Positions 11,894-39,670 are shown, numbered from the stretch's first letter. The stretch is DNA of 64,000 nucleotides from Candidatus Eiseniibacteriota bacterium (GCA_016867715.1 VGIW01000001.1:14141-78140), one strand, 5' to 3'. The notes: generated by a model from the sequence alone, not told the origin. Program-made: numbers and translations.

Positions 11894-11900
11894 GGGGCTC

Positions 11901-12374: not shown

Positions 12375-12380
12375 GGAGCC

Positions 12381-13180: not shown

Positions 13181-13192
13181 AGGGTGTGAGGC

Positions 13193-15154: not shown

Positions 15155-15163
15155 GGGGAGACG

Positions 15164-18189: not shown

Positions 18190-18350
18190 CCGCCGCCGCG
18201 GGTCGCGGCTTGCTTCCCGTCAATCGGCGCATCAAGATCGATCCCAAGCGGATGAGGTTGGGGAGCGGCAAGCCCACCGCGACCGAGGAGTCGACCTGGG
18301 GGAACATCAAGTCGATGTTCCGGTAGGGTTCTTTCGTCTGCCGACAGCGA

Positions 18351-18383
18351 GACGGGCGCCTTCGGGCGCTCGTCTTCTCTTCG
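18351..18383 (+). terminator. Candidate rho-independent terminator after nuoN
   Basis: GACGGGCGCC-TTCG-GGCGCTCGTC forms a 10-bp stem with one G-U pair and a UUCG tetraloop, followed by TTCTCTTCG. It sits in the convergent gap between nuoN and polX. Confidence 0.4.
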
Positions 18384-18413
18384 AGGATGTACCTGGTACA
18401 CGTGTGCGACCCG

Positions 18414-22956: not shown

Positions 22957-23739
22957 ATGCGCCGCCCTCGCCGGATCGAGCTCGTCGTGCTCGTCTCCCT
23001 TCTGGCGGCGATCTCGTCCCGCGCGGAAATGACCGAGGAAGACCCGACCGATCTCGTCGACGGCCCGACGGCGTCGCTTCTCCCGCACGGCGCGTACGAT
23101 ACTTCTCTTCGCCTGTACGCCGGGGGCGGCGTCCTCTTCCGCTGGCGAGTCGGGATTCGCGACGCGGTGCATCTCGGCGCTTCCTTCGGCGGAACGAACA
23201 TCGTCGGGAGCGGCGACCCCGACTGGAACCCGCGCGTCGAGTTCCTCTTCCGCGCGCTTCTTCTTCGCCAAACCTACTACGGTCCGGCGCTCGCGGTCGG
23301 CTTCGACTCGCAAGGCTACGGCGCGTACAGCGGGGCCTGGAGCCGTTACCGGTTCAAGTCGCGCGGCTTCTACGCCGTGGCGAGCAAGCACTTCCTCTTT
23401 CTCGGGGACCTCGGCTTTCACGGGGGGGCGAACTACAGTCTCGAACGGGGAGACGGCCAGAAGAACCTGAACGCGTTCTTCGGAATCGAGAAGTCGCTCC
23501 ACCCGAGGGTCGATCTTCTCGTCGAGTACGACCTTGCCGCGAACGACAGCAAGGACGACGGGGTCTTCGGCGAAGGGAAGGGATACTTGAACGCCGCGCT
23601 CGTCTGGCGGATTTCAAGCAGCGTGTGTCTGGAGGCCGATTTCCGGAACCTCCTCGAGAATGGATCGGGTGAATCCGGAAACGAAGCGGCCGCGGAGTGG
23701 AGCCGCGAGCTCCAGATCATTCATCGGCAGTATTTTTAA
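22957..23739 (+). CDS. Secreted hypothetical protein, probable small outer-membrane beta-barrel
   Basis: Signal peptide MRRPRRIELVVLVSLLAAISSRA. Alternating aromatic/Gly pattern. C-terminal ...IIHRQYF with terminal Phe, a beta-barrel-like signature. Confidence 0.55.
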   Translation: MRRPRRIELVVLVSLLAAISSRAEMTEEDPTDLVDGPTASLLPHGAYDTSLRLYAGGGVLFRWRVGIRDAVHLGASFGGTNIVGSGDPDWNPRVEFLFRALLLRQTYYGPALAVGFDSQGYGAYSGAWSRYRFKSRGFYAVASKHFLFLGDLGFHGGANYSLERGDGQKNLNAFFGIEKSLHPRVDLLVEYDLAANDSKDDGVFGEGKGYLNAALVWRISSSVCLEADFRNLLENGSGESGNEAAAEWSRELQIIHRQYF

Positions 23740-24909: not shown

Positions 24910-25290
24910 ATGACCACGATCACCCACGCGGCGGCGGGGGCGGCTTTGGGGTCGCTCGGGCTGGGTTCTCCCGCGTCGTTCCTTGCCGGAATGGCGTCGC
25001 ACCTGCCGCTCGACCTCGTTCCCCATTGGGACCTCAAGAGGACATGGATCGATACCGTTCTCACCGTCGGCGCCCTCGGGGCGCTCTGGATCGCGACCGG
25101 GGCCTCCCCGCTCTTCTGGGGGGCGGCGGGAGCGGCGCTTCCGGACTTGGAGCATTTGCTCCCCCTCCGGAGGAAGTACTTTCCCGGGCACGGGGCGCGG
25201 CACGGAAGGGCGCTCGGGCGGGCGCACGCGCTCCCGCAAGCGCTCCTCTTCGCGGTCTTCGCCGCCACGGCCCTGCGCGGACTTCCATGA
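24910..25290 (+). CDS. DUF457-type membrane-bound metal-dependent hydrolase (YdjM-like)
   Basis: MTTITHAAAGAALG... N-terminus typical of DUF457, hydrophobic. Its stop overlaps the next gene start (ATGA). Confidence 0.45.
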   Translation: MTTITHAAAGAALGSLGLGSPASFLAGMASHLPLDLVPHWDLKRTWIDTVLTVGALGALWIATGASPLFWGAAGAALPDLEHLLPLRRKYFPGHGARHGRALGRAHALPQALLFAVFAATALRGLP

Positions 25291-28200
25291 GCCCGCGCTT
25301 CGCTCGCGGTCTTCTCGCCGGAGCTCTTCTTCTCGCCGCGTGGGCGCCCGCTTTCTCCGCGGCGCCCGCACTCCTCGCCGACGGTCCGGAGGGGATCTCG
25401 TTCCGATTCGTTCTCCCCGAGCTTGCCGAGGAGCGTGTCGACGGGGATCGGGTTCTTCTTCGGGCCGAGGGTCTCTCGATCCTGACCGAGGTGGGAGCCC
25501 CCGCGGTTCCCGTCCAAGAGGTTCTCGTCGCGGTTCCGCCGGGCGCGTCCGCCGTGGTCGAGGTCGAGAACGCCGAAATCGAGCGGAGGACCGATCTCCG
25601 CATCGCTCCCTTCCCTCGCATGGACCGCGAGGAGAACGCCCACTTCGAGGTCGGAGAGGAGTACGCGGGAAGGCTCTTCCCCGAGGCGTGGGCCGAGGTC
25701 TCGCCGCCGGCGCGTCTTAGGGATCAACGGGTCGTGCCGGTCCGGGTGCATCCGGTCCGCCACGACTTCATCTCCGGGACGACCGAGATCCTAAGGACCG
25801 CGATCGTTCATGTCCGTATCATCGGCGCCGCGAAGAGGTTGGGAGAGGCGCCCCCCGAGGACGCCTTCGAGCCGGTCTACCGGAAGGCGCTGGCGAACTA
25901 CGAGTCGGGGCGCGCCTGGCGCGAGAGGGGAGCCCCGCCGCGCAAGACAGAAACCGGCGACTCCTTCGCCTCGAGCGCGAACTGGTACAAGATCACCGTT
26001 TCCGAGAGAGGCCTCCATCGGATCACGACCGACGATCTCGTCGCCGCCGGCCTCTTGAACCCGCGCGTCTCCATCGGCGATCCGCGCACGATCCGGATCT
26101 ACGCGGGGAACGGGCTCCCTCTACCCGAGTCGGAGACAGTCCCCCGTCCCGAGTGGATGAAGCAGCTCGCGATCCGGGTCGCCGGCGAAGAGGACGGATC
26201 CTTCGACGCGACGGATCGGATCGAGTTCCACGCGCTCGCGGCGAGCGGATGGAGAGGAGAGTACGATCCGGACGCGCCGGAGTACTACGATCACGTCGAG
26301 CATCCGTACTCATGGACGACCGCATACTGGCTCACGTGGGGCGGGACGTTCGGGGAGGCCCCGAAGAGGATGGGCGCGCTCGCGGCCGGCCCGGACGCGG
26401 CCCCCGGCGCGATCACTCTCTCCACGTTCCCCGAGCGGATCCACGCCGAGGAGAACACGATCAAGGATCTCACGCGGATCGGCGAGGACGGTTGGTTCTG
26501 GGACAAGTTCAGCCCGACGGAAAACAACAAGAGCTTCAACGCCCTGACGACTCCCGCCTTGACGACTCCCGACGCCGACACGAGCCGTGACGGAAACGTC
26601 CGGATCCGGTTCTTCCACTACGTGGACGCGCTCGGAAACTGCGGGACCGAAAGGGCGCGGATCAACGTGAACGGCGTCCCCTCCGCGCTTCAGGAATGGA
26701 ACAGCTGCCGGACGGAGGACGGGGCGATCCAGCCCTTCGACTACGACTCGACCGCGCACTGGGTGAAGGATGGGTTCAATCAGATCCAAATCACGGTCGC
26801 CTTCCGCCAGAAGGTGTACCTCTGCTGGATTGAGATGGGCTACGAACGCTTCTTCCGCGCGCGGCGGGGAGAGCTCCGGTTCCGGCTGGTGGAGCCCGGT
26901 TCCTACCGGATCCCGATCGAGGGCCTTTCGGCCGGCGCGGCCCGCGTGTTCCGAACGGATGATCCTTTTGACGTTAAAGAACTAACCGGTCTCTCCGCGG
27001 CCGGCAACAGCCTGCTCCTTCACGCGGAGGTGTCGGCGCCGGCCTCGTTTCACGCGGTCGCCGACACCGCGTGGAAGAAGCCGGTTTCGCTCGAGAAGTA
27101 CGTTCCGCTCAACCTTCGCGAGGGAAGGGACCCGGCTGAATACCTCGTGATCGCCTATGACCCCTACATCAGCGCCGTCTCCGAGCTCGTGGCGCACCGC
27201 TCGAACGAATACTCGGCGCTCGTCGTCCCCTATTCTGCGGTCGTCAACGAGTTCTCCTGGGGGGTTCGCGACGCGGTGGCGGTCCGCGACTTCCTTTCGC
27301 ATGGATATCACGAGTGGGCGCCGGAGAAGAGGCCGGTGTTCGTTCTTCTCGTCGGGGACGCGACCTCGGATCAGAAAGGCTACATCTCCTCGACCCTCAC
27401 GACGCTCCTCCCGACTTTCTTCCGGATCGATCGGGGGGGAAGCGACACGAACACCTACGCCACCGATGACTTCTTCTCTTACCTCGACCCTGCAGAGGGC
27501 GCGGCGGACCGCATGCCGGATGTCGCGATCGGGCGCCTTCCGGCCAACTCGATCGAAGAGGTGCGAACGATCGTCGAGAAGACCGTTCTCTACGAGACCG
27601 ACCCGGAATTCGGCCCGTGGCGCAACCGTCTTCTCTTCCTCGCGGACGACGAGGTCAAGAAGGACAAGTTCGATTGCGGGTTCCTCCTGACGCACACTCA
27701 GGATATGGAATCGGTCGCGAACTCGGCGCCGGAGCCCTTCGACAAGGTCAAGGTGTACATGGTCGAGTACCCGCTGACGTCCGCGGGTCTGAAGCCGCTC
27801 GCGAAGAACGCGTACATCGGCTGGATTCGTGATGGGTTCCTCCTTTCCAGCTACCTCGGCCACGGAGGCGTCGACAAGATGGCGGACGAGGAGCTTCTCG
27901 TTCTCGCCGATGTCTCGCCGACCATTCTGACCAACGGGAAGAGACTGCACGTCTTCTGCGCGTTCTCCTGCTCGATCGGAAGCTGGGATCTTCTCGATCG
28001 GAACTCGATCGCGGAGGCGCTGCTCAAGATGATCGGCGGGGGGGCGCTCGCCTCCTTCTCCTCGGACGCCCCCGCCTTCGCCGGTGTGAGCCTCGCCCTC
28101 AACGTCGAGTTCATGAAGAACCTCCTTCCCGGCGACCACGAGGTGATTCCTCTCGGGCTCGCCGCGCAGGCGGCGAAATCGGTCTCGGGAACGAACCTCA

Positions 28201-29387
28201 GCCGGAAGATCAACGACGAGAAGTACACGATTCTCGGCGACCCCGCGCTCCGGCTCGGCGTGCCGGAGCTCGGCGTCCGATTTCAAGGGGGAGGCGAGGC
28301 CTCCTTCACCCGCGGGCGAGTGGACACGCTTTTCGGAGAGGTGGTCGACGCAGCCGGAGCCCTCGTCTCCTCTTTCGACGGAACGGCGGACGTCGCGATT
28401 CGGGGGATGGCCGACACGCTCGGGTACAGCTTCCTCGACACCGCCTGCCTCGGCCAGCCGAACAACCCGAGGCCGGGGAAGGCCCGCTACAGCATGGAGG
28501 GCCCGACTTTCTTCCGCGGGACGGCGGACGTGCGGGGCGGGCGTTTCAAGATCCCGTTCTTCGCTCCGCGCGACACGAGGGTCGGCAATCTCGGCCGGGC
28601 GAGCGCTTACGTGCTCGACTCCGGGGAGTCGCGCGACGGCTCGGGAGGGAACGACAGCGTGCGGGTTGTGGCGGAACCGCCCGGAACGGTCTGGAGCGAT
28701 ACCCTCGGGCCGCAGATCTCGTTCACCGTGAACGGATTCCCGGTGCGGGACGGGACGTCGTTCACGAAGAACTCGGTCTTCCGCCTCGACCTCGAGGACG
28801 AGAGCGGCATCAACCTGCAGAGGAACGACAACTTCTACACGATGCACATCGTCTTCGACCGCGGACGGCCGATCGATCTCACGCCTCTCTTCGAGTATGA
28901 GAAGAGCAGTTTCCGGAAGGGCGGGCTCTCCTTCCGGCTCTCCGATTTCTCGGACGTTTTCGTCCTCGAGGGGCCGCACGAGCTGGCCCTCCGTGCATCG
29001 GATAACCTAAACAATCGAACCGAAAAGGAATACAACATCATCGTCGTGGACGCCGGCGCCGAGCTTGCTTTCCGCGCGCCGGTGCTGAACTACCCGAACC
29101 CGTTCGATCCGGACCGGCACGGGACGACCCAGATCGCCGTCGATCTGACGAGAAGCGCCCGTGTCACGATCCAGATCCTCACGCACACCGGAAAGAGGAT
29201 CCGTGAGATCGAGTCCGCGACGGCGGAGACGGGCCTTTCCGTCCGGTTCGACTGGGACGGAAGGGACGGCGACGGGGACCTCGTCGCCAACGGGGTCTAC
29301 CTGGTTCGGGCCGTCGCGGAAGCGGAGGACGGCTCCGCGAGGACGGAATCGATCGGCAAGATCGCGGTCCTGAAAGGCGTTCGCTGA
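25287..29387 (+). CDS. porU: Peptidase C25 (gingipain-like) protein with T9SS C-terminal domain, a PorU-like candidate C-terminal signal peptidase
   Basis: 1367 aa. Signal peptide MSPRFARGLLAGALLLAAWAPAFSAAP. Catalytic His in SSYLGHGGVDK and Cys in HVFCAFSCSIGSWD. C-terminal NYPNPFDPDRHGT...VRFDWDGRDGDGDLVANGVYLVRA is a T9SS CTD / FlgD-Ig-like sorting domain. It lies immediately upstream of a PorV-family gene, as in the porU-porV operon. Confidence 0.7.
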   Translation: MSPRFARGLLAGALLLAAWAPAFSAAPALLADGPEGISFRFVLPELAEERVDGDRVLLRAEGLSILTEVGAPAVPVQEVLVAVPPGASAVVEVENAEIERRTDLRIAPFPRMDREENAHFEVGEEYAGRLFPEAWAEVSPPARLRDQRVVPVRVHPVRHDFISGTTEILRTAIVHVRIIGAAKRLGEAPPEDAFEPVYRKALANYESGRAWRERGAPPRKTETGDSFASSANWYKITVSERGLHRITTDDLVAAGLLNPRVSIGDPRTIRIYAGNGLPLPESETVPRPEWMKQLAIRVAGEEDGSFDATDRIEFHALAASGWRGEYDPDAPEYYDHVEHPYSWTTAYWLTWGGTFGEAPKRMGALAAGPDAAPGAITLSTFPERIHAEENTIKDLTRIGEDGWFWDKFSPTENNKSFNALTTPALTTPDADTSRDGNVRIRFFHYVDALGNCGTERARINVNGVPSALQEWNSCRTEDGAIQPFDYDSTAHWVKDGFNQIQITVAFRQKVYLCWIEMGYERFFRARRGELRFRLVEPGSYRIPIEGLSAGAARVFRTDDPFDVKELTGLSAAGNSLLLHAEVSAPASFHAVADTAWKKPVSLEKYVPLNLREGRDPAEYLVIAYDPYISAVSELVAHRSNEYSALVVPYSAVVNEFSWGVRDAVAVRDFLSHGYHEWAPEKRPVFVLLVGDATSDQKGYISSTLTTLLPTFFRIDRGGSDTNTYATDDFFSYLDPAEGAADRMPDVAIGRLPANSIEEVRTIVEKTVLYETDPEFGPWRNRLLFLADDEVKKDKFDCGFLLTHTQDMESVANSAPEPFDKVKVYMVEYPLTSAGLKPLAKNAYIGWIRDGFLLSSYLGHGGVDKMADEELLVLADVSPTILTNGKRLHVFCAFSCSIGSWDLLDRNSIAEALLKMIGGGALASFSSDAPAFAGVSLALNVEFMKNLLPGDHEVIPLGLAAQAAKSVSGTNLSRKINDEKYTILGDPALRLGVPELGVRFQGGGEASFTRGRVDTLFGEVVDAAGALVSSFDGTADVAIRGMADTLGYSFLDTACLGQPNNPRPGKARYSMEGPTFFRGTADVRGGRFKIPFFAPRDTRVGNLGRASAYVLDSGESRDGSGGNDSVRVVAEPPGTVWSDTLGPQISFTVNGFPVRDGTSFTKNSVFRLDLEDESGINLQRNDNFYTMHIVFDRGRPIDLTPLFEYEKSSFRKGGLSFRLSDFSDVFVLEGPHELALRASDNLNNRTEKEYNIIVVDAGAELAFRAPVLNYPNPFDPDRHGTTQIAVDLTRSARVTIQILTHTGKRIREIESATAETGLSVRFDWDGRDGDGDLVANGVYLVRAVAEAEDGSARTESIGKIAVLKGVR

Positions 29388-29419
29388 GCCGTTCGGGGTA
29401 GGGGGCGTCTTGCCGATCC

Positions 29420-29448
29420 TTGATGCAACCGGTGTTTTCGAGTATCGT
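29420..29448 (+). promoter_or_regulatory. Weak candidate promoter, TTGATG-17-TATCGT, upstream of the porV-like gene
   Basis: Lower-GC intergenic stretch. An RBS (gagaggag) precedes the ATG at 29481. Confidence 0.25.
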
Positions 29449-29480
29449 TCGCAAATGAAACTTGAGAGGAGTGTCCTACG

Positions 29481-30458
29481 ATGAACGCTGGAGTCCGGAG
29501 CTTGTCGATCGTCCTGATTCTCTTGGTTTGGGGAGCGGGGAGCGCGCTCGCCGTCTCCGACGGAGCGCCCCAATCGATCGCCCCCCTCATGACGCCGAAC
29601 GCCCGCGCGGCCGGTCTCGGGCAGTCGTTCGTCTCGATCGCGGATGACGCGACCGCGTCCTTCTGGAACGCCGGGGGGCTCGCCTGGCAGACGAAGCCGG
29701 ATGTCGTTCTCTACTACTCGAAGCTCGCCGAGGGGCTCGCCGACGACATCTCCTACAACTACCTCGCCTACTCGCGGCCGATGTGGGGCGGGGGCCTCGG
29801 GTTCGGGGTCATCTTCCTCAACCTCGGGGAGTCGGACATCATCGACGAACAGGGGAACATCCTCGGGAACTTCAACTCGTTCGACTTCATCCCGATGGTC
29901 GCGTATGGAGCATCGCTCACCGAGAACCTCGCCTACGGGGCGTCGTTCAAGTTCATCTACTCGCGGCTCTCGCCGCAGATCAAGGAGCTCGGCATCGACG
30001 ACGGGACCGGGATCTCCTTCGGCGGGGACCTCTCGCTTCTCTACCGGATTCCGGGGATCCGCCTGCAGGCGGGAATGATGCTCCAGAACCTCGGGCTCGA
30101 CATCGTGTACAACGATCAGAATCAGCCGGAGGAGCTCCCGCGCAACCTGAAGGCGGGCGTCAGCTGGAGGCCGATCGAGAGCCAGCTGAACAAGTTCCTC
30201 GTCACGACCGAGCTGACGAAGAACCTTGTCTACATGGAAGGGGAGACGATTCTGATGGGGGGGATCGAGTACACGTATTACGACATGGCCTCCGGACGGG
30301 TCGGCTACATCTATGACCGCGAGGGGCATATCGAGGACATGACCTTCGGCGTCGGGCTGAAGGTGAAGTCGATCGGTCTCCGTTTCGATTGGGCTTCGGT
30401 GCCGCAGGCGGAGGACCTTCCGCGCGTGAACCGGTTCGCCATCGGGTTCACCTATTAG
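29481..30458 (+). CDS. porV: PorV/PorQ-family outer-membrane beta-barrel (T9SS cargo shuttle-like)
   Basis: Signal peptide, then ...PNARAAGLGQSFVSIADDATASFWNAGGLA, the family N-terminal motif. Repeated aromatic-Gly strands. C-terminal ...NRFAIGFTY. Confidence 0.6.
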   Translation: MNAGVRSLSIVLILLVWGAGSALAVSDGAPQSIAPLMTPNARAAGLGQSFVSIADDATASFWNAGGLAWQTKPDVVLYYSKLAEGLADDISYNYLAYSRPMWGGGLGFGVIFLNLGESDIIDEQGNILGNFNSFDFIPMVAYGASLTENLAYGASFKFIYSRLSPQIKELGIDDGTGISFGGDLSLLYRIPGIRLQAGMMLQNLGLDIVYNDQNQPEELPRNLKAGVSWRPIESQLNKFLVTTELTKNLVYMEGETILMGGIEYTYYDMASGRVGYIYDREGHIEDMTFGVGLKVKSIGLRFDWASVPQAEDLPRVNRFAIGFTY

Positions 30459-30482
30459 CCCGGGGGAGGGGAGAAGAACCGC

Positions 30483-33400
30483 GTGATCGTTCGGCGCGCC
30501 GTGCGGGGTCTCCTTTTCTTTCTGCTCCCCTCGATTCTCTTCGCCGCCGGCGCGGATGCCGGCGTCCTCCGCGTCGAACGGGCGCGCGAGAGGACCGCGC
30601 CGGAAGCGGCGCGCGCGCCGAGACTCCGGCACTTCCCGGACGTGATCGGAGAAGGGCCTCTCCGGCCGCTTCTCCCCGGTTCCGGGCGTACCTATGCCGA
30701 TCTCCTCAAGTCCCCCGAGGCGGCCCCGTCAACGACGATCCGCGTCGCGGTCTTTCGGATCGAGTTTGAGAACGACTCGGCCGGCGAGGCGACGACCGGA
30801 GACGGGCGCTTTATTCTCGAGGACGACGGCAGCTGGTTCATCGACGCGCCGCCGCACGATTCGCTCTACTTTCACACGCACCTCACGGTGCTCCGGCGGT
30901 ACTACGAGGCGCAGTCGTACGGCAATCTCCGCATCGAGTGGGAGATCTTCCCGAAGAGCCTCGCCGCGGGAGAGTACCGTCTTCACGACACCGCCGACTA
31001 TCTTCCGGCGGGGAGCCCGGACTCGTGGACGATCGACGACCGGGTCGACGGCCTCATCCGGCTTTGCAAGGACGCGCTCGCCCTCGTCGACACGGTCGAT
31101 CCGGGCGTCGTCTTCTCCGCGTACGACGGCTACATGATCATTCACGCCGGACCGGATCTCCAGACCGACATCAACGGGGACTCGCCGGGGGACACCCCGA
31201 GCTTCTTCCTCTCGTTCGGCGACGAGGACTCGGTGGTCGTCGATCGGGATTCTCCCGACTCGGTTCTCGTGCGCGGCGTCACGATGATCCCCGAGTACAA
31301 CAGCCAGGACGGCTTCTCCTTCGGCCTGAACGGCGTGATCGCCCACGAGTTCGGGCATCAGCTCGGGCTCCCGGACCTTTACAATACCGAGCGGAGCTGG
31401 CCCGCGATCGGCGTGTGGGGCCTCATGGACAGCGGCGGCATGATCGCGATCGACGCGGGGGGCGTCTACCTCGGGAGCGTGATCCCCGCGTCTCTTTGCG
31501 CCTGGTCGAAGCTCTATCTCGGATGGGCGACGCCCGAGATCGTGACGACCTCGCGCGATCTCCGGATCGCGTGCGCGACCCTCGCGGATCCTCCCGAGGG
31601 CGCCCCGCGCTATGCGCTCATCCCGCTGAACGACCGGGAGTACTTCCTGATCGAGAACCGGTGCGGGCTCGCCCCGCTCGGCGAGTACGCGGCGAAGCTC
31701 GACACGCTGAACCAGGTAGTCCTCGGCCCCGTGACGAACGACAGTCTCGAGTTGTTCACCGGCGACTACGACTACGCGCTCCCCGGCTGGGGTCTCCTCA
31801 TTTGGCACATCAACAATCGGAAGCTGACCGAAGAGGCGATCCTCTACACGAACGACGTGAACAACGACTACAACAACCGCGCGGTCGAGCTCGAGGAGGC
31901 GGACGGAATCAAGGACCTCGGAAACCCCTACTCGGCCTACTGGGACGGGAGCCCGTACGACCCGTTCTTCGAGGGCAACGCGACGGTCTTCGGGCCCGGA
32001 ACGGCGCCGAACTCCAACCTCACGGACGGCGGGAGATCGCGGGTCACCGTGCGGGGAATCGGAGCGTGGGGCGCGGTGATGGAGCTCGCGGTCGACGTCG
32101 ATCGGAACCTCGCCGGTTGGCCGATCCCGCTTCTCATCGACTCGTCCGCCGCGGCTCCGGAGGGGATCGCTCTCGCGCGGTCGGATGGGGCGGTTCATGT
32201 CGCCGCGTTCTGGACGGCCGGCGACTCGATGGAGGCGCGAAGCGGCGTGACCGTGGCCGCCGCGGAGGAGACGCTCCGCATCGCCCGCGCGGAGCTTCCG
32301 GGCCCTCTCGCGGGGAACGCCCTCGTCGGCGATCTCGTGGAGGAGATCCCGGGCGAGGAGCTCTACGCGATCGCGGGGGGGCGCGTTCTGCGGATCGACC
32401 TCTCGGAGGGGTCTCTCGTTCGCGATCTCGGCGAGGCCCCGAGCGGAGAGGTGAGCGGAGGTCCTCTTCTTCTCGACATCGATGGGGACGGCGTCTCGGA
32501 GATTGTCGTCGCCGCTGGGGAGAGCCTCTTTGTCTACGCCGTCTTCTCGGACTCGATCGCTCGTCTCCGCAGCGATCCGCTTCCCGGGCTCCCCTCTTCG
32601 AACCTAGCCGCGTCTTCGGACGGGGGCGGGGGGCCTCGCGTGTATTTTCTGTCTCAAGGTTCTTTGTACGGGCTCGCGTACGGCGAGAAGACGAGAGCGG
32701 GAAGCGTGCGAGCGAGAGGCGCGTTCGGCGCCTCGGAGGGCTCCGTCCTTCTCGCGGATCTCGACCGGGACGGCGCGCGCGAGATCGTGGTCGTCACGAA
32801 CTCCGGCGCCGCCTACGCCGTGTCGGAGGAAGGAAGGGACCTTCCCGGGTGGCCGGTCTTCCTCGGCAAGGAGCCGACCGGAACGCCCTTCGCGTGCGAT
32901 CGGGACGAGGATGGCTTCCCCGAGATCGCGATCCCCGTCGGCCCCGACCTCGTGCTCCTCGAGAAGAACGGGATTCGGCAGATGGACACTCCACTTCGCA
33001 TCCCGCCGTATCTTCAGAAGGAGCGCATCCTCGCGGGGAACGGCGTGGCCGCGCTTCGGGAGGGGGGCCGCCCGCTCCCGCCGATCGCGGCGGACGACGG
33101 AGGGCGCTTGTGGATGTGGGAGGGGAGGGAGAGGGTCTCTCCCGGCTGGCCCTTCTCGACCGGGACGGCGAACCTCGCCGTTCGCGGCGGGCCCGCCCCG
33201 GGTGGATCGGGGGCGGCTCTCTACGCGCTCTCGCGCGACGGGTTTCTTTATGGGTATCCTTTCGAAGGAGCGGAGGCGAACCGCTTTCTCTGGTGGGGAC
33301 CGGGGGGGAGCCCGGGTGCGAGCTATGCGCTCGCCGATTCGCTTCTCGCGCCGCCGGCTCCGCCCGGCGCGCCTCCGGGACGGATCGTACGCGCGTTCTG

Positions 33401-33644
33401 TTACCCGAACCCGGTTCGCGGGGACCGGGCACTCTTCCGCTACGAGCTTACCGCCGAAGCGAACGTGACGATCGCCGTGCACGATTCGTCGGGGAAGCGC
33501 GTGGCGCGGATCGAACGGGCTCCCGGCGCGCCGGGGGAGAACGAGGTCGCTCTCGACGCGGGGGCGCTCTCGAGCGGCGTGTACACGGTTCGGATCGACT
33601 CGGGCGCGGAACACGAGTTCGTTAGGATGGCGATCATTCGATAG
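30483..33644 (+). CDS. M6-family (immune inhibitor A-like) zinc metalloprotease with beta-propeller-like repeats and T9SS C-terminal domain
   Basis: 1053 aa. Signal peptide. HEFGHQLGLPDLY zinc motif (HExxH, InhA-like). Repeated DxDGDG/VSEIVV FG-GAP-like segments. C-terminal RAFCYPNPVRGD...GVYTVRI CTD. Confidence 0.7.
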   Translation: MIVRRAVRGLLFFLLPSILFAAGADAGVLRVERARERTAPEAARAPRLRHFPDVIGEGPLRPLLPGSGRTYADLLKSPEAAPSTTIRVAVFRIEFENDSAGEATTGDGRFILEDDGSWFIDAPPHDSLYFHTHLTVLRRYYEAQSYGNLRIEWEIFPKSLAAGEYRLHDTADYLPAGSPDSWTIDDRVDGLIRLCKDALALVDTVDPGVVFSAYDGYMIIHAGPDLQTDINGDSPGDTPSFFLSFGDEDSVVVDRDSPDSVLVRGVTMIPEYNSQDGFSFGLNGVIAHEFGHQLGLPDLYNTERSWPAIGVWGLMDSGGMIAIDAGGVYLGSVIPASLCAWSKLYLGWATPEIVTTSRDLRIACATLADPPEGAPRYALIPLNDREYFLIENRCGLAPLGEYAAKLDTLNQVVLGPVTNDSLELFTGDYDYALPGWGLLIWHINNRKLTEEAILYTNDVNNDYNNRAVELEEADGIKDLGNPYSAYWDGSPYDPFFEGNATVFGPGTAPNSNLTDGGRSRVTVRGIGAWGAVMELAVDVDRNLAGWPIPLLIDSSAAAPEGIALARSDGAVHVAAFWTAGDSMEARSGVTVAAAEETLRIARAELPGPLAGNALVGDLVEEIPGEELYAIAGGRVLRIDLSEGSLVRDLGEAPSGEVSGGPLLLDIDGDGVSEIVVAAGESLFVYAVFSDSIARLRSDPLPGLPSSNLAASSDGGGGPRVYFLSQGSLYGLAYGEKTRAGSVRARGAFGASEGSVLLADLDRDGAREIVVVTNSGAAYAVSEEGRDLPGWPVFLGKEPTGTPFACDRDEDGFPEIAIPVGPDLVLLEKNGIRQMDTPLRIPPYLQKERILAGNGVAALREGGRPLPPIAADDGGRLWMWEGRERVSPGWPFSTGTANLAVRGGPAPGGSGAALYALSRDGFLYGYPFEGAEANRFLWWGPGGSPGASYALADSLLAPPAPPGAPPGRIVRAFCYPNPVRGDRALFRYELTAEANVTIAVHDSSGKRVARIERAPGAPGENEVALDAGALSSGVYTVRIDSGAEHEFVRMAIIR

Positions 33645-33667: not shown

Positions 33668-34507
33668 GTGAGGCGACTACTTTGGTTGTGGATCGCGTGC
33701 GGATGGCTCGCGGCTCCCGTGGCGGGGGCCCCCGGAATCGAGCGGACGCTTCGGTCGGAGATCCGCCGGCTCCCCGCTCCCGCGCGCGAGGAGCGGGCGG
33801 GCGGAGGGCGCGACTCGACCCCGTCGCCGCGCAAGGCGTTTCTCTTCTCGCTCCTCGTCCCCGGGCTCGGGCAGGTCTATTCGTCCGGATGGGATCCGGT
33901 CTCATGGACCTCCGCGCGCGGCCTCGCGTACGGCGTCTTTGAGGCGGTCGCGTGGATCGAGCAGCAGGGGAATCACGGGCGCGGAATGGACATGCAGACC
34001 AAGTACCGCGCGTTCGCGGACGCGAACTGGCACTGGAGCTTGAACGCGTGCACGGTCCTCTATAACGGAGAAGGAGCGATCGACGACGATCCGTTCGCGC
34101 CTGGATATGCGGGCCCGGACGGCGTGGACATCTTCATCGACACGGCGGCGGATTCCCTCGAGTTCTACGAAGACATCCACAAGCTTCAGAAGTGGATCTG
34201 CGGGTGGGACGACTACGCGGACGAGCGATACTTCCAGACCTCCTCGGATGAGACGAACCGCATCTGGTCCACCCCGATGCAGCTGGAATACCGCGCGATG
34301 CGACAGAGGCAGAACAAGCTCATGAGCAACGCGGACCATTGGCTCTGGGCGATCGTCGCGAACCATGTGGTTTCGGCGTTCGACGCCTACTTCGTCGCGA
34401 AGGGGCGCGCGCGGGGCGACGATCTTTCCGCCTTGCCCGCCGTCCGCTTCGGGGGGACAATGACGGGAGACGGCGCGTCGGTCGCCGTCGCGTGGAGTTT
34501 CCGATGA
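33668..34507 (+). CDS. DUF5683-like secreted protein (paralog 1)
   Basis: Signal peptide VRRLLWLWIACGWLAAPVAGA. SPRKAFLFSLLVPGLGQVYSSGW matches the SPxKAxLxSxxxPGxGQ motif. RBS AGGAAGGGA. The family call is from memory. Confidence 0.5.
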   Translation: MRRLLWLWIACGWLAAPVAGAPGIERTLRSEIRRLPAPAREERAGGGRDSTPSPRKAFLFSLLVPGLGQVYSSGWDPVSWTSARGLAYGVFEAVAWIEQQGNHGRGMDMQTKYRAFADANWHWSLNACTVLYNGEGAIDDDPFAPGYAGPDGVDIFIDTAADSLEFYEDIHKLQKWICGWDDYADERYFQTSSDETNRIWSTPMQLEYRAMRQRQNKLMSNADHWLWAIVANHVVSAFDAYFVAKGRARGDDLSALPAVRFGGTMTGDGASVAVAWSFR

Positions 34508-35283
34508 CGGCGCGTCTTCTGCCGATTCTTCTCGCGCTTCTTCTCTTGGTTCCGGACGCGCGGGCGTCCGATCTCGATTCCCATTTTCGCCGTGCGTCGC
34601 GCGCGGAAGCAGACGCGCGCTTCGAGTCCTCCGCGACGGAGAGCGGGGCCGGAACCTCTCTCTCCCCCTCGCGACGCAAGGCGTTCCTTCTCTCGGCTCT
34701 TCTCCCCGGCCTCGGCCAGCGGGCGAACGGCTCGGAGATTCGGAGCCGGGCGTTCTTCGGTTTGGAGGCGATGATCTGGACGAGCTTCCTCGTCTTCAAG
34801 ATCCAAGAACACAACCGGACGAGCGACTTCGAGGAGTACGCGCGGGCGTACGCGGGCATTTCAGAGGGGGAGAGGGAGACCGAGTATTATCGGATCCTCA
34901 CGATCTTCAACAGCGTCGAGGAGTACAACGAAGCGGTCCGCATCGAGGCGCGCGCTCTCTATCCGGTCTCGAGGTACTCGCAAGACACGCGCGACGCGTA
35001 CTACGCGGAGCACGCGTACGGCTCCGATCGTTCCTTCCGGTGGAGGACGAACCAAGATCGTCTCGAGTATCGGCTCATTCGGAACGACGCGCTGAACTCG
35101 GGGCGGCGCGCGAACTACATGCTGGTCGCGGCGGTCGTGAACCGCGCGGTCAGCGCCGTGGAGGCGGCGCGGGCGGCCGGGGCGGGAGGCAAGCTCGCGG
35201 AAGCCGTCACGCATCTTCGCGCGTCCGCCTCCGGCGAGGGGGAGCCGGCCCTTCTCCGTCTGGGCGTCGGGGCGCGCTTCTGA
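34504..35283 (+). CDS. DUF5683-like secreted protein (paralog 2)
   Basis: The ATG start overlaps the previous stop (ATGA). Signal peptide MTARLLPILLALLLLVPDARA. SPSRRKAFLLSALLPGLGQ motif. Confidence 0.5.
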   Translation: MTARLLPILLALLLLVPDARASDLDSHFRRASRAEADARFESSATESGAGTSLSPSRRKAFLLSALLPGLGQRANGSEIRSRAFFGLEAMIWTSFLVFKIQEHNRTSDFEEYARAYAGISEGERETEYYRILTIFNSVEEYNEAVRIEARALYPVSRYSQDTRDAYYAEHAYGSDRSFRWRTNQDRLEYRLIRNDALNSGRRANYMLVAAVVNRAVSAVEAARAAGAGGKLAEAVTHLRASASGEGEPALLRLGVGARF

Positions 35284-35306: not shown

Positions 35307-36218
35307 TTGTCCGATCGTCTCCTTCTCCCGTTCGTCCTTCTTCTCCATCTCGTCTTCCCTGCGCGCGCGGATATCGTCCCCGTGCGCGCGCTCTCGGGAT
35401 CTGCGGACGACGCGGCCCTCTTCTCTCCGCGAGGAATCTCGATCGGCTACGGAGGGCTTCTCTACGTCGCCGACGGCGGGAGCGACCGGATCGTCGTCTT
35501 CGATACGGCGGGCGCGGTCGCTTCGACCGTCGGCTTCTCCGGATCGGCCGGCGGCCGCTTTCTCGAGCCGACGGACGTGGCGGCCGCGGAGGGGCTGCAT
35601 CTCTACGTCCTCGACGCGGGGAACGAACGGGTGCAGCTCTTCGATCGATACGGGCAGTTCCTCGATGTGCTGCTCGATCGCGAGGCGGGGACGATCGGGA
35701 CGCCCCTCGGGCTCGAGGCGGATTCCTTTGGGCGGCTCTACGTGACCGACGCGGAGGCGGACCGGGTGCGGGTCTTTCGATCCTTCACGGGTCAAGAAGA
35801 GTTCTCGTTCGGCGGGTTCGGGACCGAGCCGGGTCGCTTCCGAGGGCCCGCCGACGCGTCGGTCGATCGCTCGCGCCGAATCTACGTCGCCGATCGAGGG
35901 AACAATCGTGTGCAGGTCTTCGATCCGCTCGGCGGTTTTCTCCGCTCGATCGGAGAAGGGGAAGGATCCGCGCGGCTCTCCGGTCCGACGGGGGTCGCGG
36001 TCGACCGGAAGGGGAGGGTCTTCGTCGCCGATGGGGGGAACGCGCGGGTGGTCGTCTTCGACGAGGCGGGGGGCTTCGCAGGCGAGATCCGGGAGGGAGT
36101 CGGCGGAAAGCCGCTCGTCTCTCCTCGCGGCGTGGCGGTCGACGACGCGGGTCTCCTCTACGTCTCCGACCCCGCCGGGGGGCTCGTTCATCTCTTCCGA
36201 TACGGGGCCGCCCCGTGA
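35307..36218 (+). CDS. NHL-repeat (six-bladed beta-propeller) secreted protein
   Basis: TTG start with RBS GGAAGAGGAG. Signal peptide. Six repeats of the type G..LYV.D.GN.RV.VFD (e.g. RIVVFDTAG, RVQLFDRYG, RVRVFRSF, RVQVFDPLG, RVVVFDEAG, LVHLFRYG). Confidence 0.7.
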   Translation: MSDRLLLPFVLLLHLVFPARADIVPVRALSGSADDAALFSPRGISIGYGGLLYVADGGSDRIVVFDTAGAVASTVGFSGSAGGRFLEPTDVAAAEGLHLYVLDAGNERVQLFDRYGQFLDVLLDREAGTIGTPLGLEADSFGRLYVTDAEADRVRVFRSFTGQEEFSFGGFGTEPGRFRGPADASVDRSRRIYVADRGNNRVQVFDPLGGFLRSIGEGEGSARLSGPTGVAVDRKGRVFVADGGNARVVVFDEAGGFAGEIREGVGGKPLVSPRGVAVDDAGLLYVSDPAGGLVHLFRYGAAP

Positions 36219-39200: not shown

Positions 39201-39670
39201 CTCCTCTCGGGGAGCGCCTCGCCGGCGAGATCGAGTGGAGCCGCCGCCTGGAGGAGGAACGATCGAACGACGACCGTGCGGTCGATCTCACGGGGGACGA
39301 TTGGAAGGCGACGCTTCTCTTCGACCCGGCGCCGCGCCGCCGTTTCCAACTCCCCGTCGCTTACCAGAGCGAGCGGGAGGCGGTTCGGGGGGAATCCGTG
39401 AGGTCGGTGCGGATCGAGCCGGAGGCGGCTCTCAACCTCGCCTCGAGGAGCCGTCTCGACGCGGGGTTCGTATGGACCCGTTTCCTCGAGGAGGATTTGG
39501 ATCGCTCGGGTTCGTTTCTTCGCAATCGAAAAGAAGGGATCCGTTGGCGTCTCCAATTCGCATATGAGTGGAACACCGTCCTCTCCTCGACCGTCGCCTA
39601 CAGCGGGGAGAACTTGAAGGGCGAAGAGATCTCGCAGCAGTTCCGGGCCGAGATGAGGGCGTTCTTCTGA
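36257..39670 (+). CDS. Large (1137 aa) secreted hypothetical protein, predicted outer-membrane/beta-rich; TamB-like or TpsA-like partner candidate
   Basis: Signal peptide MRPILALLLASVLVRPALG. Gly/Arg/Asp-rich with no recognised catalytic motif. The C-terminus ...QQFRAEMRAFF ends in aromatic Phe, a beta-signal-like feature. Its stop overlaps the next gene start. Confidence 0.6.
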   Translation: MRPILALLLASVLVRPALGEGKALLSEKTYRLGYASVLLTGEDRAGPYLLPHRPILLGSETVLLHGRTIERETDYWIRYDRGEIVFAAPLVAGDGAEIRYRHLPLPLPLERSLHPLRLAEGEEETVLAPRPRAAMAGPLDTGALRVGGSKSFSVLIGSDRALTLEQALRVSVTGNLAPDVRVTAQLTDQNLPFQAEGRSERLEQLDQVLVRVESPRFDATLGDYEMRFAETEFGRYDRALKGALGRWKGKGYELEGSGGLSKGTYRSVEIRGVDGKQGPYALLGVSALGQIVVAGSEQVWVDGEKATRGDGNDYVIDYSEGAITFNPARRISSDSRIAVDFQTTGDEYRRSFAAGRFRVGGEGERFTLGGVLLSEGDDADQPEALVLDDADYDSLRASGDRRPLGSTARFLGAGGDYDTTGGVFVYAGRDSGDFAVSFREVPAGEGTYVDSISEVWGQRIFVHVGEGKGNYEPTVPVPLPSSHKLFALGGAASPIRGFRLAGEAAWSDLDRNVLSPIDDEENAGRGLHLSLSLSETLLRLKGAEVGSLDLAGSRRSVTEHFEPLGRYREPHRDGRWMTADLRRAIGPGRQADDRIGSGEAFASRGAETTTLASGMFRRGTPIGRMAFSGEGGELDAEGFLSKRWSWSGAFEDPKRYRAAYGEERIASEEGDSLQGETIQRNTEASVRLSIVRPSIRVTRARRTFDREGLPFRGTRDRDERIGLSVARGTLEAEGAVTFEERDYVDSATSLWERWYEGRTDETSLRWRGPVSVGAEYAHRTLVYGETAPEGSRGSDLGRLELRHGGFGGIVQGSWDYQVTAEERKSRRRLLLRAPAGQEADYDSLGNYFPGEGTFNQVIVEGDAEPVIDLEVGATIRVEPARRRGGAGGGWWEGIGSETFVRVRERTTTGDRAGLLLLRPGAFQRNDVTLRGSTVLRQELRWTDPRSEGNLRVRFQREDREENEYANLNRDDLVRTWLVRGKAPLGERLAGEIEWSRRLEEERSNDDRAVDLTGDDWKATLLFDPAPRRRFQLPVAYQSEREAVRGESVRSVRIEPEAALNLASRSRLDAGFVWTRFLEEDLDRSGSFLRNRKEGIRWRLQFAYEWNTVLSSTVAYSGENLKGEEISQQFRAEMRAFF

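What the first reader, a model, noticed from the sequence alone, without database searches (positions are those of the whole stretch)
25287..33644. porU-porV-like T9SS sortase/shuttle pair flanked by a CTD-bearing cargo protease, in a high-GC non-canonical host
A 1367-aa C25 (gingipain-family) peptidase with an intact His/Cys dyad (GHGG ... FCAFSC) and a C-terminal NYPNPFDP sorting domain lies directly upstream of a PorV/PorQ-family beta-barrel. This is the same order as the Porphyromonas porU-porV operon, where PorU is the C25-like CTD signal peptidase and PorV shuttles cargo. Immediately downstream is a 1053-aa M6/InhA-like zinc metalloprotease (HEFGHQLGLP) with beta-propeller-like repeats and its own CTD (CYPNPV...GVYTVRI), a plausible cargo. 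The ~70% GC content and the surrounding gene set (nuoCD fusion, pilBTC-pilSR, hut) are unlike Bacteroidetes. This points to a T9SS in an FCB-related or candidate lineage. The remaining core genes (sprA/sov, porKLMN) must lie elsewhere. The PorU homologue retaining a CTD is consistent with known PorU biology.
Basis: partly seen in the sequence, partly recalled or inferred. Interest (0 to 1): 0.7.

Follow-up and report, generated by a model that had tools for sequence, protein, structure and literature searches.

The report
Conserved porU-porV-metalloprotease secretion gene cluster
The three genes are a genuine type IX secretion sortase (PorU), its outer-membrane shuttle (PorV) and a secreted zinc protease, sitting in a genome that resembles Candidatus Eisenbacteria; the protease is a conserved third gene of this unit across many lineages, so the find is a solid but fairly ordinary new member of a known system.

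Summary
25287-29387 scores 554.7 bits on NCBIfam PorU (cutoff 420), and its His and Cys align with P. gingivalis PorU. 29481-30458 is a PorV/PorQ-family protein. Its AlphaFold model (pLDDT 92) matches F. johnsoniae PorV best (TM 0.79). 30483-33644 is an M6 metalloprotease with an intact HEFGHQLGLPD site, FG-GAP repeats and a type A T9SS sorting domain.

The host resembles Candidatus Eisenbacteria. T9SS is already described as common to the FCB superphylum, and public annotations already name these proteins, so the host is not a surprise.

The protease is more than a plausible cargo. In 33 of 38 metagenome loci carrying an orthologue, a porV gene lies directly upstream (GC 0.29-0.71). In low-GC loci with canonical porU-porV, the orthologue is NCBIfam's "T9SS-dependent M6-like inactivated metalloprotease". 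The window therefore holds the catalytically intact form of a conserved porU-porV-M6 unit. One Eisenbacteria MAG lacks the M6 gene.

In Eisenbacteria-like genomes the cluster continues with two DUF5683-like genes, an NHL propeller, an unannotated 1137-aa outer-membrane protein modelled with about 36 strands, and an Omp85. The 1137-aa protein shares only one small domain with SprA.

No sprA or porKLMN lies in the window, and the rest of the genome could not be searched.

The parts
24910..25290 (+). 126-aa small hydrophobic protein whose stop overlaps the porU start by 4 nt. It is probably the first gene of the unit; its function is unknown.
   Evidence: Gene call on identical contigs. It is 69% identical to the 129-aa gene at the same position in Eisenbacteria MAG locus L094. 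The only family signal is a faint YdjM hit.
25287..29387 (+). porU: T9SS C-terminal signal peptidase/sortase, 1366 aa. It has a signal peptide, a gingipain-type pro-domain (aa 61-207; 25467-25907), a C25 catalytic domain (aa 619-990; 27141-28256) with His859 in GHGG (27858-27869) and Cys895 in FCAFSC (27954-27971), and its own C-terminal sorting-type domain (aa 1268-1346; 29088-29324).
   Evidence: NF033707 554.7 bits (cutoff 420) over model positions 3-1094 of 1095. Peptidase_C25 1.7e-67, Propeptide_C25 1.4e-11, FlgD_ig 2.3e-10. phmmer to P. gingivalis PorU 6za2 gives E 2.1e-49, with GHGG aligned to GHGG and AFSC aligned to TATC. The N-terminus matches the gingipain pro-domain 4ief at E 2e-5.
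29481..30458 (+). porV-like outer-membrane barrel, 325 aa, with a signal peptide and 14 long strands. It is the putative carrier of sorting-domain cargo.
   Evidence: NF033709 185.4 bits (cutoff 90). Its best equivalog model is PorV at 119.8 bits, below the 250 cutoff, ahead of PorQ at 74.5 and PorV2 at 39.5. The family profile against PDB sequences gives 6h3i_F PorV at E 9.9e-75. The AF2 model has pLDDT 92.1 and pTM 0.86. The top Foldseek hits are 8gl6_F and 6h3i_F PorV (E 7e-20, TM 0.77-0.79), followed by FadL/TodX.
30483..33644 (+). M6 (immune-inhibitor-A-like) zinc metalloprotease, 1053 aa. It has a signal peptide, a catalytic domain (aa 79-393; 30717-31661) with HEFGHQLGLPD (31344-31376), FG-GAP beta-propeller-like repeats (about aa 545-960; 32115-33362) and a type A T9SS sorting domain (aa 974-1046; 33402-33620).
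   Evidence: Peptidase_M6 33.7 bits (cutoff 22). Por_Secre_tail PF18962 29.9 (cutoff 27) and TIGR04183 28.0 (cutoff 23). Its best NCBIfam family is NF052323 at 260.9 bits, below the 600 cutoff. H288, E289, H292, D298 and M315 are invariant in 32 orthologues. A porV gene lies directly upstream of orthologues in 33 of 38 metagenome loci.
33668..34507 (+). DUF5683-like secreted protein a, 279 aa.
   Evidence: PF18935 31.4 bits (cutoff 26.7). The gene is collinear in Eisenbacteria loci and in many metagenome loci.
34504..35283 (+). DUF5683-like secreted protein b, 259 aa. It overlaps the previous gene by 4 nt.
   Evidence: PF18935 24.7 bits, just below the cutoff. A DUF5683-like gene lies downstream of M6 in 16 of 21 informative metagenome loci, and also in the Bacteroidota-type locus L127.
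35307..36218 (+). NHL-repeat beta-propeller protein, 303 aa, with a signal peptide.
   Evidence: NHL 2.2e-36 with 5 repeats. It always lies directly upstream of the 1137-aa gene in relatives, including candidate division LCP-89.
36257..39670 (+). Unannotated 1137-aa outer-membrane protein ('OMP1137'). It has a signal peptide, a C-terminal ...EMRAFF signal, and a predicted giant beta-barrel with a small insert domain (aa 292-341; 37130-37279) shared with SprA.
39670..41403 (+). Omp85-family protein, 577 aa, with three POTRA matches (TamA-like size). Its start overlaps the stop of the previous gene.
   Evidence: POTRA 1.8e-29 and Omp85 6.1e-25. The BamA model TIGR03303 scores 161 bits, below the 297 cutoff. 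It is collinear with OMP1137 in all relatives examined outside Ignavibacteria.
22957..23739 (+). 260-aa secreted protein ending ...HRQYF, possibly a small outer-membrane protein. It is conserved upstream of accA and porU.
   Evidence: Gene call. It has no family hit. Homologues lie at the same position in L093, L094, L109 and L175. The termini are shown.

Best explanation
This is the cargo-processing end of a type IX secretion system. It is encoded as a tightly packed gene string on one strand, in a genome that resembles Candidatus Eisenbacteria.

All of the products carry Sec signal peptides. Cargo proteins with a C-terminal sorting domain would cross the outer membrane through a translocon that is not encoded in this window. 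PorV, a 14-strand FadL-like barrel, would bind the sorting domain and carry the cargo away from the translocon. PorU, a C25 cysteine peptidase with an intact His/Cys pair that is held at the surface through its own uncleaved sorting domain, would then cut the sorting domain off. The cargo is either released or joined to a surface glycolipid.

The third gene encodes an active M6 zinc protease with a beta-propeller-like region and a type A sorting domain. It is itself a T9SS substrate. It is also a conserved partner gene of porU-porV in many lineages, some of which keep it as a catalytically dead protein.

Shown here: the gene identities, the intact active sites, the PorV fold and the conserved gene order. 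Inferred from P. gingivalis and F. johnsoniae work: the transport steps. Unknown: the role of the protease beyond being secreted.
For: - PorU: equivalog-level HMM above its cutoff; catalytic His and Cys aligned to the solved P. gingivalis PorU.
- PorV: family HMM above its cutoff; profile hit to the PorV sequence in the PDB at E 9.9e-75; confident AF2 model whose best matches are PorV chains at TM 0.77-0.79.
- M6: Pfam and TIGR sorting-domain hits above their cutoffs; HEXXHXXGXXD plus a Met invariant in 32 orthologues.
- Gene spacing: gaps of 93, 24 and 23 nt and 4-nt overlaps, all on one strand.
- Synteny in Eisenbacteria-like MAGs: porU-porV-M6-DUF5683x2-NHL-OMP1137-Omp85 is collinear down to 31-35% identity.
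- Synteny in metagenomes: 33 of 38 orthologous M6 loci have porV directly upstream, against 1 of 30 loci with other M6 proteins. GC spans 0.29-0.71.
- Low-GC loci L127 and L132 carry canonical PorU (934 and 968 bits), equivalog-level PorV (261 and 259 bits against 250) and NF052323 M6i (958 and 974 bits against 600) in the same order. The zinc motif is degenerate there.
- Other proteins with sorting-type C-termini, and a second PorV/PorQ-like gene, occur in an Eisenbacteria MAG.
- The mechanism is taken from PMC5562754, PMC8545088 and PMC10994853.
Against: - No translocon (canonical sprA), motor or ring genes (porK/L/M/N), porT, porW, porP or porZ is present in the 64-kb window. The rest of the genome could not be searched, so a complete T9SS in this organism is assumed, not shown.
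- The PorV-like protein is 325 aa, shorter than canonical PorV, and scores below the PorV equivalog cutoff (119.8 against 250). It could act as another PorV/PorQ-family member.
- The generic Por_Secre_tail HMM does not hit the PorU C-terminus.
- One Eisenbacteria MAG (L178) keeps the whole cluster but lacks the M6 gene, so M6 is not indispensable to the unit.
- No promoter or terminator signal supports or delimits an operon.
Confidence: 0.85

Rival explanations
1. The M6 protease is only an ordinary T9SS cargo that happens to lie next to porU-porV. It has no functional tie to them.
For: It has a type A sorting domain above the family cutoffs. NCBIfam itself names the related family 'T9SS-dependent', which describes a substrate. 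One Eisenbacteria MAG has the cluster without the M6 gene.
Against: porV lies directly upstream of orthologues in 33 of 38 loci spanning GC 0.29-0.71, against 1 of 30 for other M6 proteins. The gene is kept in the same position after loss of both zinc-binding His residues and the catalytic Glu, with intermediate degenerate motifs. That argues for a conserved role that does not need proteolysis. Being a cargo and being a partner are not mutually exclusive.
Confidence: 0.4
2. The 1366-aa protein is a secreted gingipain-like digestive protease (a cargo), not the sortase.
For: It carries Peptidase_C25 plus a gingipain-type pro-domain and a C-terminal sorting-type domain, as the gingipains do.
Against: The PorU-specific model NF033707 matches end to end (positions 3-1094 of 1095) at 554.7 bits, above its cutoff of 420. 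The best PDB sequence match is PorU itself. It sits directly upstream of a PorV-family gene in every relative examined. Canonical PorU in locus L127 also has the pro-domain.
Confidence: 0.05
3. The 325-aa barrel is not a cargo shuttle but another FadL-family protein, such as a BamG-like BAM subunit or a PorQ-type anchor. Its linkage to an Omp85 gene would then reflect outer-membrane protein assembly.
For: It scores below the PorV equivalog cutoff. BamG of the FCB-type BAM complex is a 14-strand FadL-family protein (PMC12611786). An Omp85 gene lies 9 kb downstream in the same gene string. Foldseek also finds BAM-complex chains 9hiv_F and 9n2d_B.
Against: The PorV chains are much better matches (E 7e-20, TM 0.79) than the BAM-complex chains (E 2e-6 to 4e-6, TM 0.44-0.55). 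PorV is the best-scoring NCBIfam equivalog, ahead of PorQ and PorV2. Its position directly after porU matches the canonical pair, and orthologous loci grade into equivalog-level PorV.
Confidence: 0.08
4. The cluster belongs to the separate 'PorU2/PorV2' putative type IX sorting system defined in NCBIfam, rather than to the main T9SS.
For: The NCBIfam models for PorU2 (NF052324), PorV2 (NF052325) and M6i (NF052323) have consecutive accessions, and all three give sub-threshold hits here.
Against: PorU2 scores 98.1 bits against a cutoff of 450 and PorV2 39.5 against 325, while PorU proper passes its cutoff. In loci L127 and L132, M6i sits next to canonical PorU and PorV, not PorU2 and PorV2.
Confidence: 0.03

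Closest known systems
Porphyromonas gingivalis porU-porV (PG0026-PG0027) and the PorU/PorV/PorQ/PorZ attachment complex
   Same: The gene order porU then porV is the same. PorU is a C25-type peptidase with aligned catalytic His and Cys and a C-terminal sorting-type domain. PorV is a FadL-like barrel. The expected division of labour is shuttle plus sortase (PMC5562754, PMC8545088).
   Different: The host is a high-GC lineage resembling Candidatus Eisenbacteria. PorU has an extra N-terminal gingipain-type pro-domain of about 200 aa, which the P. gingivalis alignment does not cover. PorV is shorter (325 aa) and below the equivalog score. No porZ or porQ was identified in the window. A conserved M6 protease gene follows porV. 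Whether cargo is attached to a lipopolysaccharide is unknown.
Flavobacterium johnsoniae PorV in the SprA translocon complexes (PDB 6h3i, 8gl6)
   Same: It is the best structural match of the 325-aa model (TM 0.77-0.79, 22% identity). The 14-strand barrel is the same.
   Different: The window protein is about 40-70 residues shorter, so its extracellular loops are probably trimmed. No canonical SprA partner was seen in the window.
NCBIfam NF052323 'T9SS-dependent M6-like inactivated metalloprotease'
   Same: The length (about 1040 aa) and the architecture (M6 domain, propeller-like repeats, type A sorting domain) are the same. The position directly downstream of porU-porV is also the same.
   Different: The window protein scores 260.9 bits against a cutoff of 600 and keeps the full HEXXHXXGXXD zinc site. 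True members have lost both His residues and the Glu.
Immune inhibitor A (InhA) / M6 thuringilysin-type metalloproteases
   Same: It has a Peptidase_M6 catalytic domain with HEXXHXXGXXD and a downstream conserved Met.
   Different: TIGR03296 scores below its cutoff (79.7 against 110.8). The window protein adds FG-GAP repeats and a T9SS sorting domain, and it is linked to porU-porV.
SprA/Sov, the 36-strand T9SS translocon (compared with the downstream 1137-aa protein)

Membership tests
T9SS sortase PorU (NCBIfam NF033707) | Full-length match to the PorU model above the curated cutoff | tested here: met
   554.7 bits against a cutoff of 420; model positions 3-1094 of 1095.
T9SS sortase PorU (NCBIfam NF033707) | C25 catalytic His/Cys dyad present | tested here: met
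   GHGG aligns with the GHGG of P. gingivalis PorU 6za2, and the Cys of AFSC aligns with the Cys of TATC. Peptidase_C25 E 1.7e-67.
T9SS sortase PorU (NCBIfam NF033707) | C-terminal sorting-type beta-sandwich domain | tested here: inconclusive
   The C-terminus is covered by the PorU model, by FlgD_ig (40.7 bits against 27) and by the PorZ C-terminus, and it carries PNP...GVY...K-x-A-V-L-K motifs. The generic Por_Secre_tail HMMs give no hit at E <= 0.01.
T9SS sortase PorU (NCBIfam NF033707) | Cleaves sorting domains of cargo and attaches or releases them | not testable with these tools
   This needs biochemistry or genetics.
PorV/PorQ family (NF033709) and PorV proper (NF033710) | Family-level HMM above its cutoff | tested here: met
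   NF033709 185.4 bits against 90; Pfam PorV 54.8 against 27.
PorV/PorQ family (NF033709) and PorV proper (NF033710) | PorV equivalog HMM above its cutoff | tested here: not met
   119.8 bits against 250. It is still the best of the equivalogs (PorQ 74.5, PorV2 39.5). Orthologues in low-GC loci reach 259-261 bits.
PorV/PorQ family (NF033709) and PorV proper (NF033710) | 14-strand FadL-like barrel closest to solved PorV | tested here: met
   AF2 pLDDT 92.1 with 14 long strands. Foldseek 8gl6_F E 7.1e-20, TM 0.79; 6h3i_F TM 0.77; FadL/TodX follow.
PorV/PorQ family (NF033709) and PorV proper (NF033710) | Encoded next to porU | tested here: met
   It starts 93 nt after the porU stop, on the same strand. 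The same arrangement holds in all relatives examined.
T9SS type A sorting domain cargo (TIGR04183 / PF18962) | C-terminal domain HMM above its cutoff, plus an N-terminal signal peptide | tested here: met
   M6 protein: TIGR04183 28.0 bits against 23 and PF18962 29.9 against 27, at aa 974-1046. The N-terminus is hydrophobic.
Peptidase M6 (PF05547 / TIGR03296) | Catalytic-domain HMM and an intact zinc site | tested here: met
   PF05547 33.7 bits against 22. HEFGHQLGLPD is intact and invariant in orthologues. TIGR03296 is below its cutoff (79.7 against 110.8).
NF052323 T9SS-dependent M6-like inactivated metalloprotease | Score above its cutoff, and loss of the catalytic motif | tested here: not met
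   260.9 bits against 600, and the HExxH motif is intact. It is a homologue with the same architecture and position, not a member.
PorU2 / PorV2 putative type IX sorting system (NF052324, NF052325) | Scores above the curated cutoffs | tested here: not met
   98.1 bits against 450 and 39.5 against 325.
Complete type IX secretion system | SprA/Sov translocon, PorK/L/M/N (GldK/L/M/N) and other core genes in the same genome | not testable with these tools
   None is in the 64-kb window by Pfam or NCBIfam.
SprA/Sov translocon (TIGR04189), for the 1137-aa protein | Equivalog HMM above its cutoff | tested here: not met
   21.1 bits against 200, and only aa 292-341 match. The family profile finds no SprA among PDB sequences. 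hhalign to a SprA-like ORF aligns 53 residues only.

The most novel reading that the evidence does not exclude
The whole string porU-porV-M6-DUF5683x2-NHL-OMP1137-Omp85 may be one ancient outer-membrane secretion and attachment module of FCB-type bacteria. Under this reading the M6/M6i protein is an unrecognised accessory component of the PorU-PorV machinery. Like PorZ, it would be a propeller-bearing surface protein that keeps its sorting domain, and its original protease activity became dispensable in Bacteroidota. The unannotated 1137-aa, roughly 36-strand barrel would be a SprA-related minimal channel, inserted by its own Omp85 paralogue.
Probability: 0.15. Interest if true: 0.75.

Novelty: new member of a known kind. 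Interest (0 to 1): 0.4.

Why it matters
In itself the locus adds a well-supported PorU-PorV pair from a little-studied candidate phylum. That fits the existing view that type IX secretion is a trait of the FCB superphylum.

Two by-products are more useful.
1. A large M6 protease or pseudo-protease is a conserved third gene after porU-porV in lineages from 29% to 71% GC. The catalytic site decays while the gene and its position are kept. I found no paper describing this protein. A deletion in a tractable Bacteroidota species that carries porU-porV-M6i would be a cheap test of whether it takes part in cargo processing.
2. In Eisenbacteria-like genomes the pair is welded to a very large, entirely unannotated outer-membrane protein family (about 2600 representative sequences) and a dedicated Omp85. 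This family is a candidate for a new giant-barrel class.

Tried and rejected
- TamB identity of the same protein, suggested by the adjacent TamA-sized Omp85. There is no DUF490/TamB hit, and the model is a closed set of long antiparallel strands with an outer-membrane C-terminal signal. Rejected.
- Context of the 1137-aa family in Ignavibacterium album. The neighbours are housekeeping genes and tell us nothing.
- Promoter and terminator scan of 24-43 kb. It found fewer sites than chance.
- Rfam scan of the whole window. It found nothing.
- Literature searches. Eisenbacteria plus T9SS gave no papers. PorU2/PorV2 gave nothing relevant. PorV plus immune inhibitor A or M6 gave nothing on this protein. 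In Cytophaga hutchinsonii the gene after porV is a small 'zinc protease', not this 1000-aa family.
- The first genome scan, using the 60-sequence alignment, failed because it had no conserved stretch. It was rerun with 19 sequences.
- The afdb50 fold library was unavailable.
- Looking for T9SS core genes next to PorV/PorQ paralogues of Eisenbacteria. These look-ups returned orthologous clusters or unrelated neighbours, and no porKLMN.

Full report
**1. What is at the coordinates**

Three same-strand ORFs occupy exactly the positions given: 25287-29387 (1366 aa), 29481-30458 (325 aa) and 30483-33644 (1053 aa). Independent gene calls on identical metagenome contigs give the same boundaries. GC is 0.63-0.70 across the window and about 0.64-0.65 over these genes, a little lower than the stated 70%.

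**2. PorU**

- The 1366-aa protein matches NCBIfam NF033707 (T9SS sortase PorU) from model position 3 to 1094 of 1095. It scores 554.7 bits against a curated cutoff of 420.
- It also has Pfam Peptidase_C25 (E 1.7e-67), Propeptide_C25 and a C-terminal FlgD_ig-type domain.
- Against PDB sequences the best hit is P. gingivalis PorU 6za2 (E 2.1e-49). GHGG aligns with GHGG, and the last Cys of FCAFSC aligns with the Cys of TATC, so the His/Cys pair is intact.
- The N-terminal 200 residues resemble the gingipain pro-domain (4ief, E 2e-5).
- That pro-domain is not peculiar to this lineage. A canonical-scoring PorU in a low-GC metagenome locus has it too.
- The PorU2 model is far below its cutoff (98 bits against 450).

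**3. PorV**

- The 325-aa protein passes the PorV/PorQ family model (185.4 bits against 90) but not the PorV equivalog model (119.8 against 250). PorV is still its best equivalog, ahead of PorQ (74.5) and PorV2 (39.5).
- A profile of 56 homologues hits the F. johnsoniae PorV sequence in the PDB at E 9.9e-75 over its full length. That alignment includes a few Bacteroidota PorV sequences.
- AlphaFold2 on this alignment gives pLDDT 92.1 and pTM 0.86, with 14 long strands.
- The best Foldseek matches in the PDB are the two PorV chains 8gl6_F and 6h3i_F (E 7e-20 and 2e-16, TM 0.79 and 0.77). FadL and TodX follow. BAM-complex FadL-like chains score much lower (E about 1e-6, TM 0.44-0.55).
The protein is PorV-like, though shorter than canonical PorV.

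**4. The M6 protein**

- It has Peptidase_M6 (33.7 bits against 22), FG-GAP-type repeats (borderline here, but consistently present in homologues) and a type A sorting domain. TIGR04183 scores 28.0 against 23 and PF18962 scores 29.9 against 27.
- The zinc site HEFGHQLGLPD and a downstream Met are invariant in an alignment of 32 orthologues.
- Its best NCBIfam family is NF052323, 'T9SS-dependent M6-like inactivated metalloprotease', at 260.9 bits against a cutoff of 600. It is a relative of that family, not a member.

**5. Host**

The nearest homologues of the neighbouring genes come from MAGs labelled Candidatus Eisenbacteria. One is labelled Gemmatimonadetes and another Latescibacterota. Identical genes occur on JGI contigs Ga0194112, Ga0194113 and Ga0194125 and on several Logan assemblies. 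NCBI lists Candidatus Eiseniibacteriota among the candidate phyla; its affinity to the FCB group is my own knowledge. Recent papers describe T9SS and SprA as features of the FCB superphylum, not only of Bacteroidota (PMC11205867; PMC12611786). Public annotations already call these proteins 'PorV/PorQ family protein' and 'T9SS type A sorting domain-containing protein' in Eisenbacteria MAGs. The host is therefore less of a surprise than the finding suggests.

**6. The protease is a conserved third gene, not a chance neighbour**

I scanned the metagenome collection with a profile of the M6 family and annotated the 80 returned loci with HMMs of the window's proteins.

- 43 loci had a high-scoring orthologue, and 38 of these had at least 1 kb of upstream sequence.
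- 33 of those 38 carry a PorV-family gene directly upstream. Among loci with other M6 proteins the figure is 1 of 30.
- PorU was found further upstream in 21 of 35 informative loci. This used a single-sequence search, so it is a lower bound.
- A DUF5683-like gene lies downstream in 16 of 21 informative loci.
- The loci span GC 0.29-0.71, so many lineages are involved.
- 13 of the 43 orthologues lack HExxH.

For two low-GC loci (L127, L132) NCBIfam gives canonical PorU (934 and 968 bits), equivalog-level PorV (261 and 259 bits against 250) and NF052323 itself (958 and 974 bits against 600), in the order porU-porV-M6i. An alignment of the motif region shows the intact HEFGHxLGLPDLY in the window and other high-GC loci. 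Intermediates read HQFAH, AKFFGH and HEFGQ. The low-GC loci have fully degenerate versions such as VSNIASFMGLPDLF, while the flanking GLPDLF...IGxFGLMD is kept. The window therefore holds the catalytically intact form of a gene that Bacteroidota-type genomes keep, in the same place, as a pseudo-protease. This points to a role tied to PorU-PorV that does not depend on proteolysis.

There is one caveat. An Eisenbacteria MAG (L178) has the entire cluster without the M6 gene, so it is not indispensable. I found no paper on this protein.

**7. The cluster is longer than the finding**

The full gene string runs as follows:

- a 260-aa secreted protein;
- accA;
- a 126-aa membrane protein whose stop overlaps the porU start;
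- porU, porV and M6;
- two DUF5683-like genes;
- an NHL propeller;
- a 1137-aa protein;
- an Omp85 with a TamA-like three-POTRA architecture.

The gaps are 23-93 nt or the genes overlap. The envelope proteins checked, apart from the 126-aa protein, have signal-peptide-like N-termini, and several end in an aromatic residue, as outer-membrane proteins do. The order is conserved in MAGs labelled Eisenbacteria down to 31-35% identity, including a 2.69-Mb chromosome, CP070702.1. It recurs in several high-GC metagenome loci. NHL, the 1137-aa protein and Omp85 also stay together in candidate division LCP-89 without porU-porV. A divergent lineage has PorV, M6 without HExxH, a further MA-clan/PD40 protein, DUF5683, NHL, the 1137-aa protein and Omp85.

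**8. The 1137-aa protein**

- It has no Pfam hit. Its only NCBIfam signal is 21 bits to SprA over residues 292-341.
- AlphaFold2 with 60 homologues gives pLDDT 85 and pTM 0.77. From residue 145 to the C-terminus the model is almost all beta, with 36 strands of 9 or more residues plus a few shorter ones, and three small beta-sandwich inserts.
- Foldseek ranks SprA chains first (E 4.7e-11), but with TM of only 0.22-0.29.
- The family profile finds no SprA among PDB sequences.
- hhalign against a divergent SprA-like ORF that happened to be in locus L162 (TIGR04189 143.9 bits) aligns just the 53-residue insert domain (probability 94%).
- 37 of 41 family members hit the SprA model weakly (best E 3.4e-11).
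- The family is large: 2625 representatives at E <= 1e-30, all about 1100-1200 aa. It is widespread in Ignavibacteria, where it is not linked to T9SS genes.

I conclude that it is an uncharacterised giant outer-membrane barrel that shares one domain with SprA. Calling it a translocon would be speculation. I could not inspect the coordinates to confirm a single closed barrel.

**9. What could not be settled**

No sprA, porK/L/M/N, porT, porW, porP, porQ or porZ is in the window. Indirect support for a working system in the phylum comes from a second PorV/PorQ-like gene and further proteins with sorting-type C-termini in an Eisenbacteria MAG. The promoter and terminator scan and the Rfam scan were uninformative.

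**10. Verdict**

Mechanistically this is the shuttle-and-sortase end of a type IX secretion system plus a conserved secreted metalloprotease. The transport steps are inferred from P. gingivalis and F. johnsoniae work (PMC5562754, PMC8545088, PMC10994853). It is a new member of a known kind, of moderate interest. The two leads worth following are the conserved porU-porV-M6/M6i triad and the unannotated giant-barrel family linked to it in Eisenbacteria.

Noticed in passing
window 36257-39670 (+): A 1137-aa outer-membrane protein with no Pfam or NCBIfam family. AF2 (pLDDT 85) models it with about 36 long strands. The family has about 2600 representative sequences of uniform length and is common in Ignavibacteria and Eisenbacteria. 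It shares a roughly 50-aa insert domain with SprA.
   Followed up: yes
window 35307-36218, 36257-39670 and 39670-41403 (+); loci L092, L091, L177, L178: The NHL propeller, the giant barrel and a three-POTRA Omp85 stay adjacent even where porU-porV are absent (candidate division LCP-89). This suggests a dedicated assembly or partner relationship.
   Followed up: partly
window 33668-35283 (+); L127 16027-16932: Two tandem DUF5683-like secreted proteins follow the M6 gene. A DUF5683 gene is also kept downstream of porU-porV-M6i in Bacteroidota-type loci. Their function is unknown.
   Followed up: partly
L127 12916-16023, L106 12814-15981, L091 5020-8052: In several lineages a second protein of about 1000-1050 aa, with a Peptidase_MA_2 domain and PD40/Tricorn-like repeats, is inserted between M6/M6i and DUF5683. 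It is absent from the window.
   Followed up: no
L178 (GCA_016235265.1), 5739-20008: An Eisenbacteria MAG keeps porU-porV-DUF5683x2-NHL-giant barrel-Omp85 but has no M6 gene.
   Followed up: no
L162 762-13088: A metagenome contig carries two short M6 proteins (about 550-600 aa) flanking a PorV/PorQ-family gene; at least the first has a sorting domain. A divergent 1923-aa SprA-like ORF lies 2 kb downstream (TIGR04189 143.9 bits, below the 200 cutoff).
   Followed up: partly
window 22957-23739 (+) and 24910-25290 (+): A 260-aa secreted protein ending in ...QYF, and a 126-aa hydrophobic protein overlapping the porU start. Both are conserved at these positions in relatives and neither has a family assignment. 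Some relatives have a Trm112p-like mini-gene in place of the 126-aa gene.
   Followed up: partly
window about 5.7-17 kb (+): A complete nuo (complex I) operon with a fused nuoCD gene (563 aa), preceded by two MiaB-like radical-SAM genes.
   Followed up: no
window 18414-20117 (-) and 20205-20879 (+): A PolX-type DNA polymerase (HHH_8, DNA_pol_B_thumb and PHP domains) lies divergent from a stand-alone PHP-domain protein.
   Followed up: no
window 51380-53269 (+): A 629-aa protein with no family hit apart from a faint TonB-dependent-receptor barrel signal. It lies between a PHP-domain gene and a CvpA (Colicin_V) gene.
   Followed up: no
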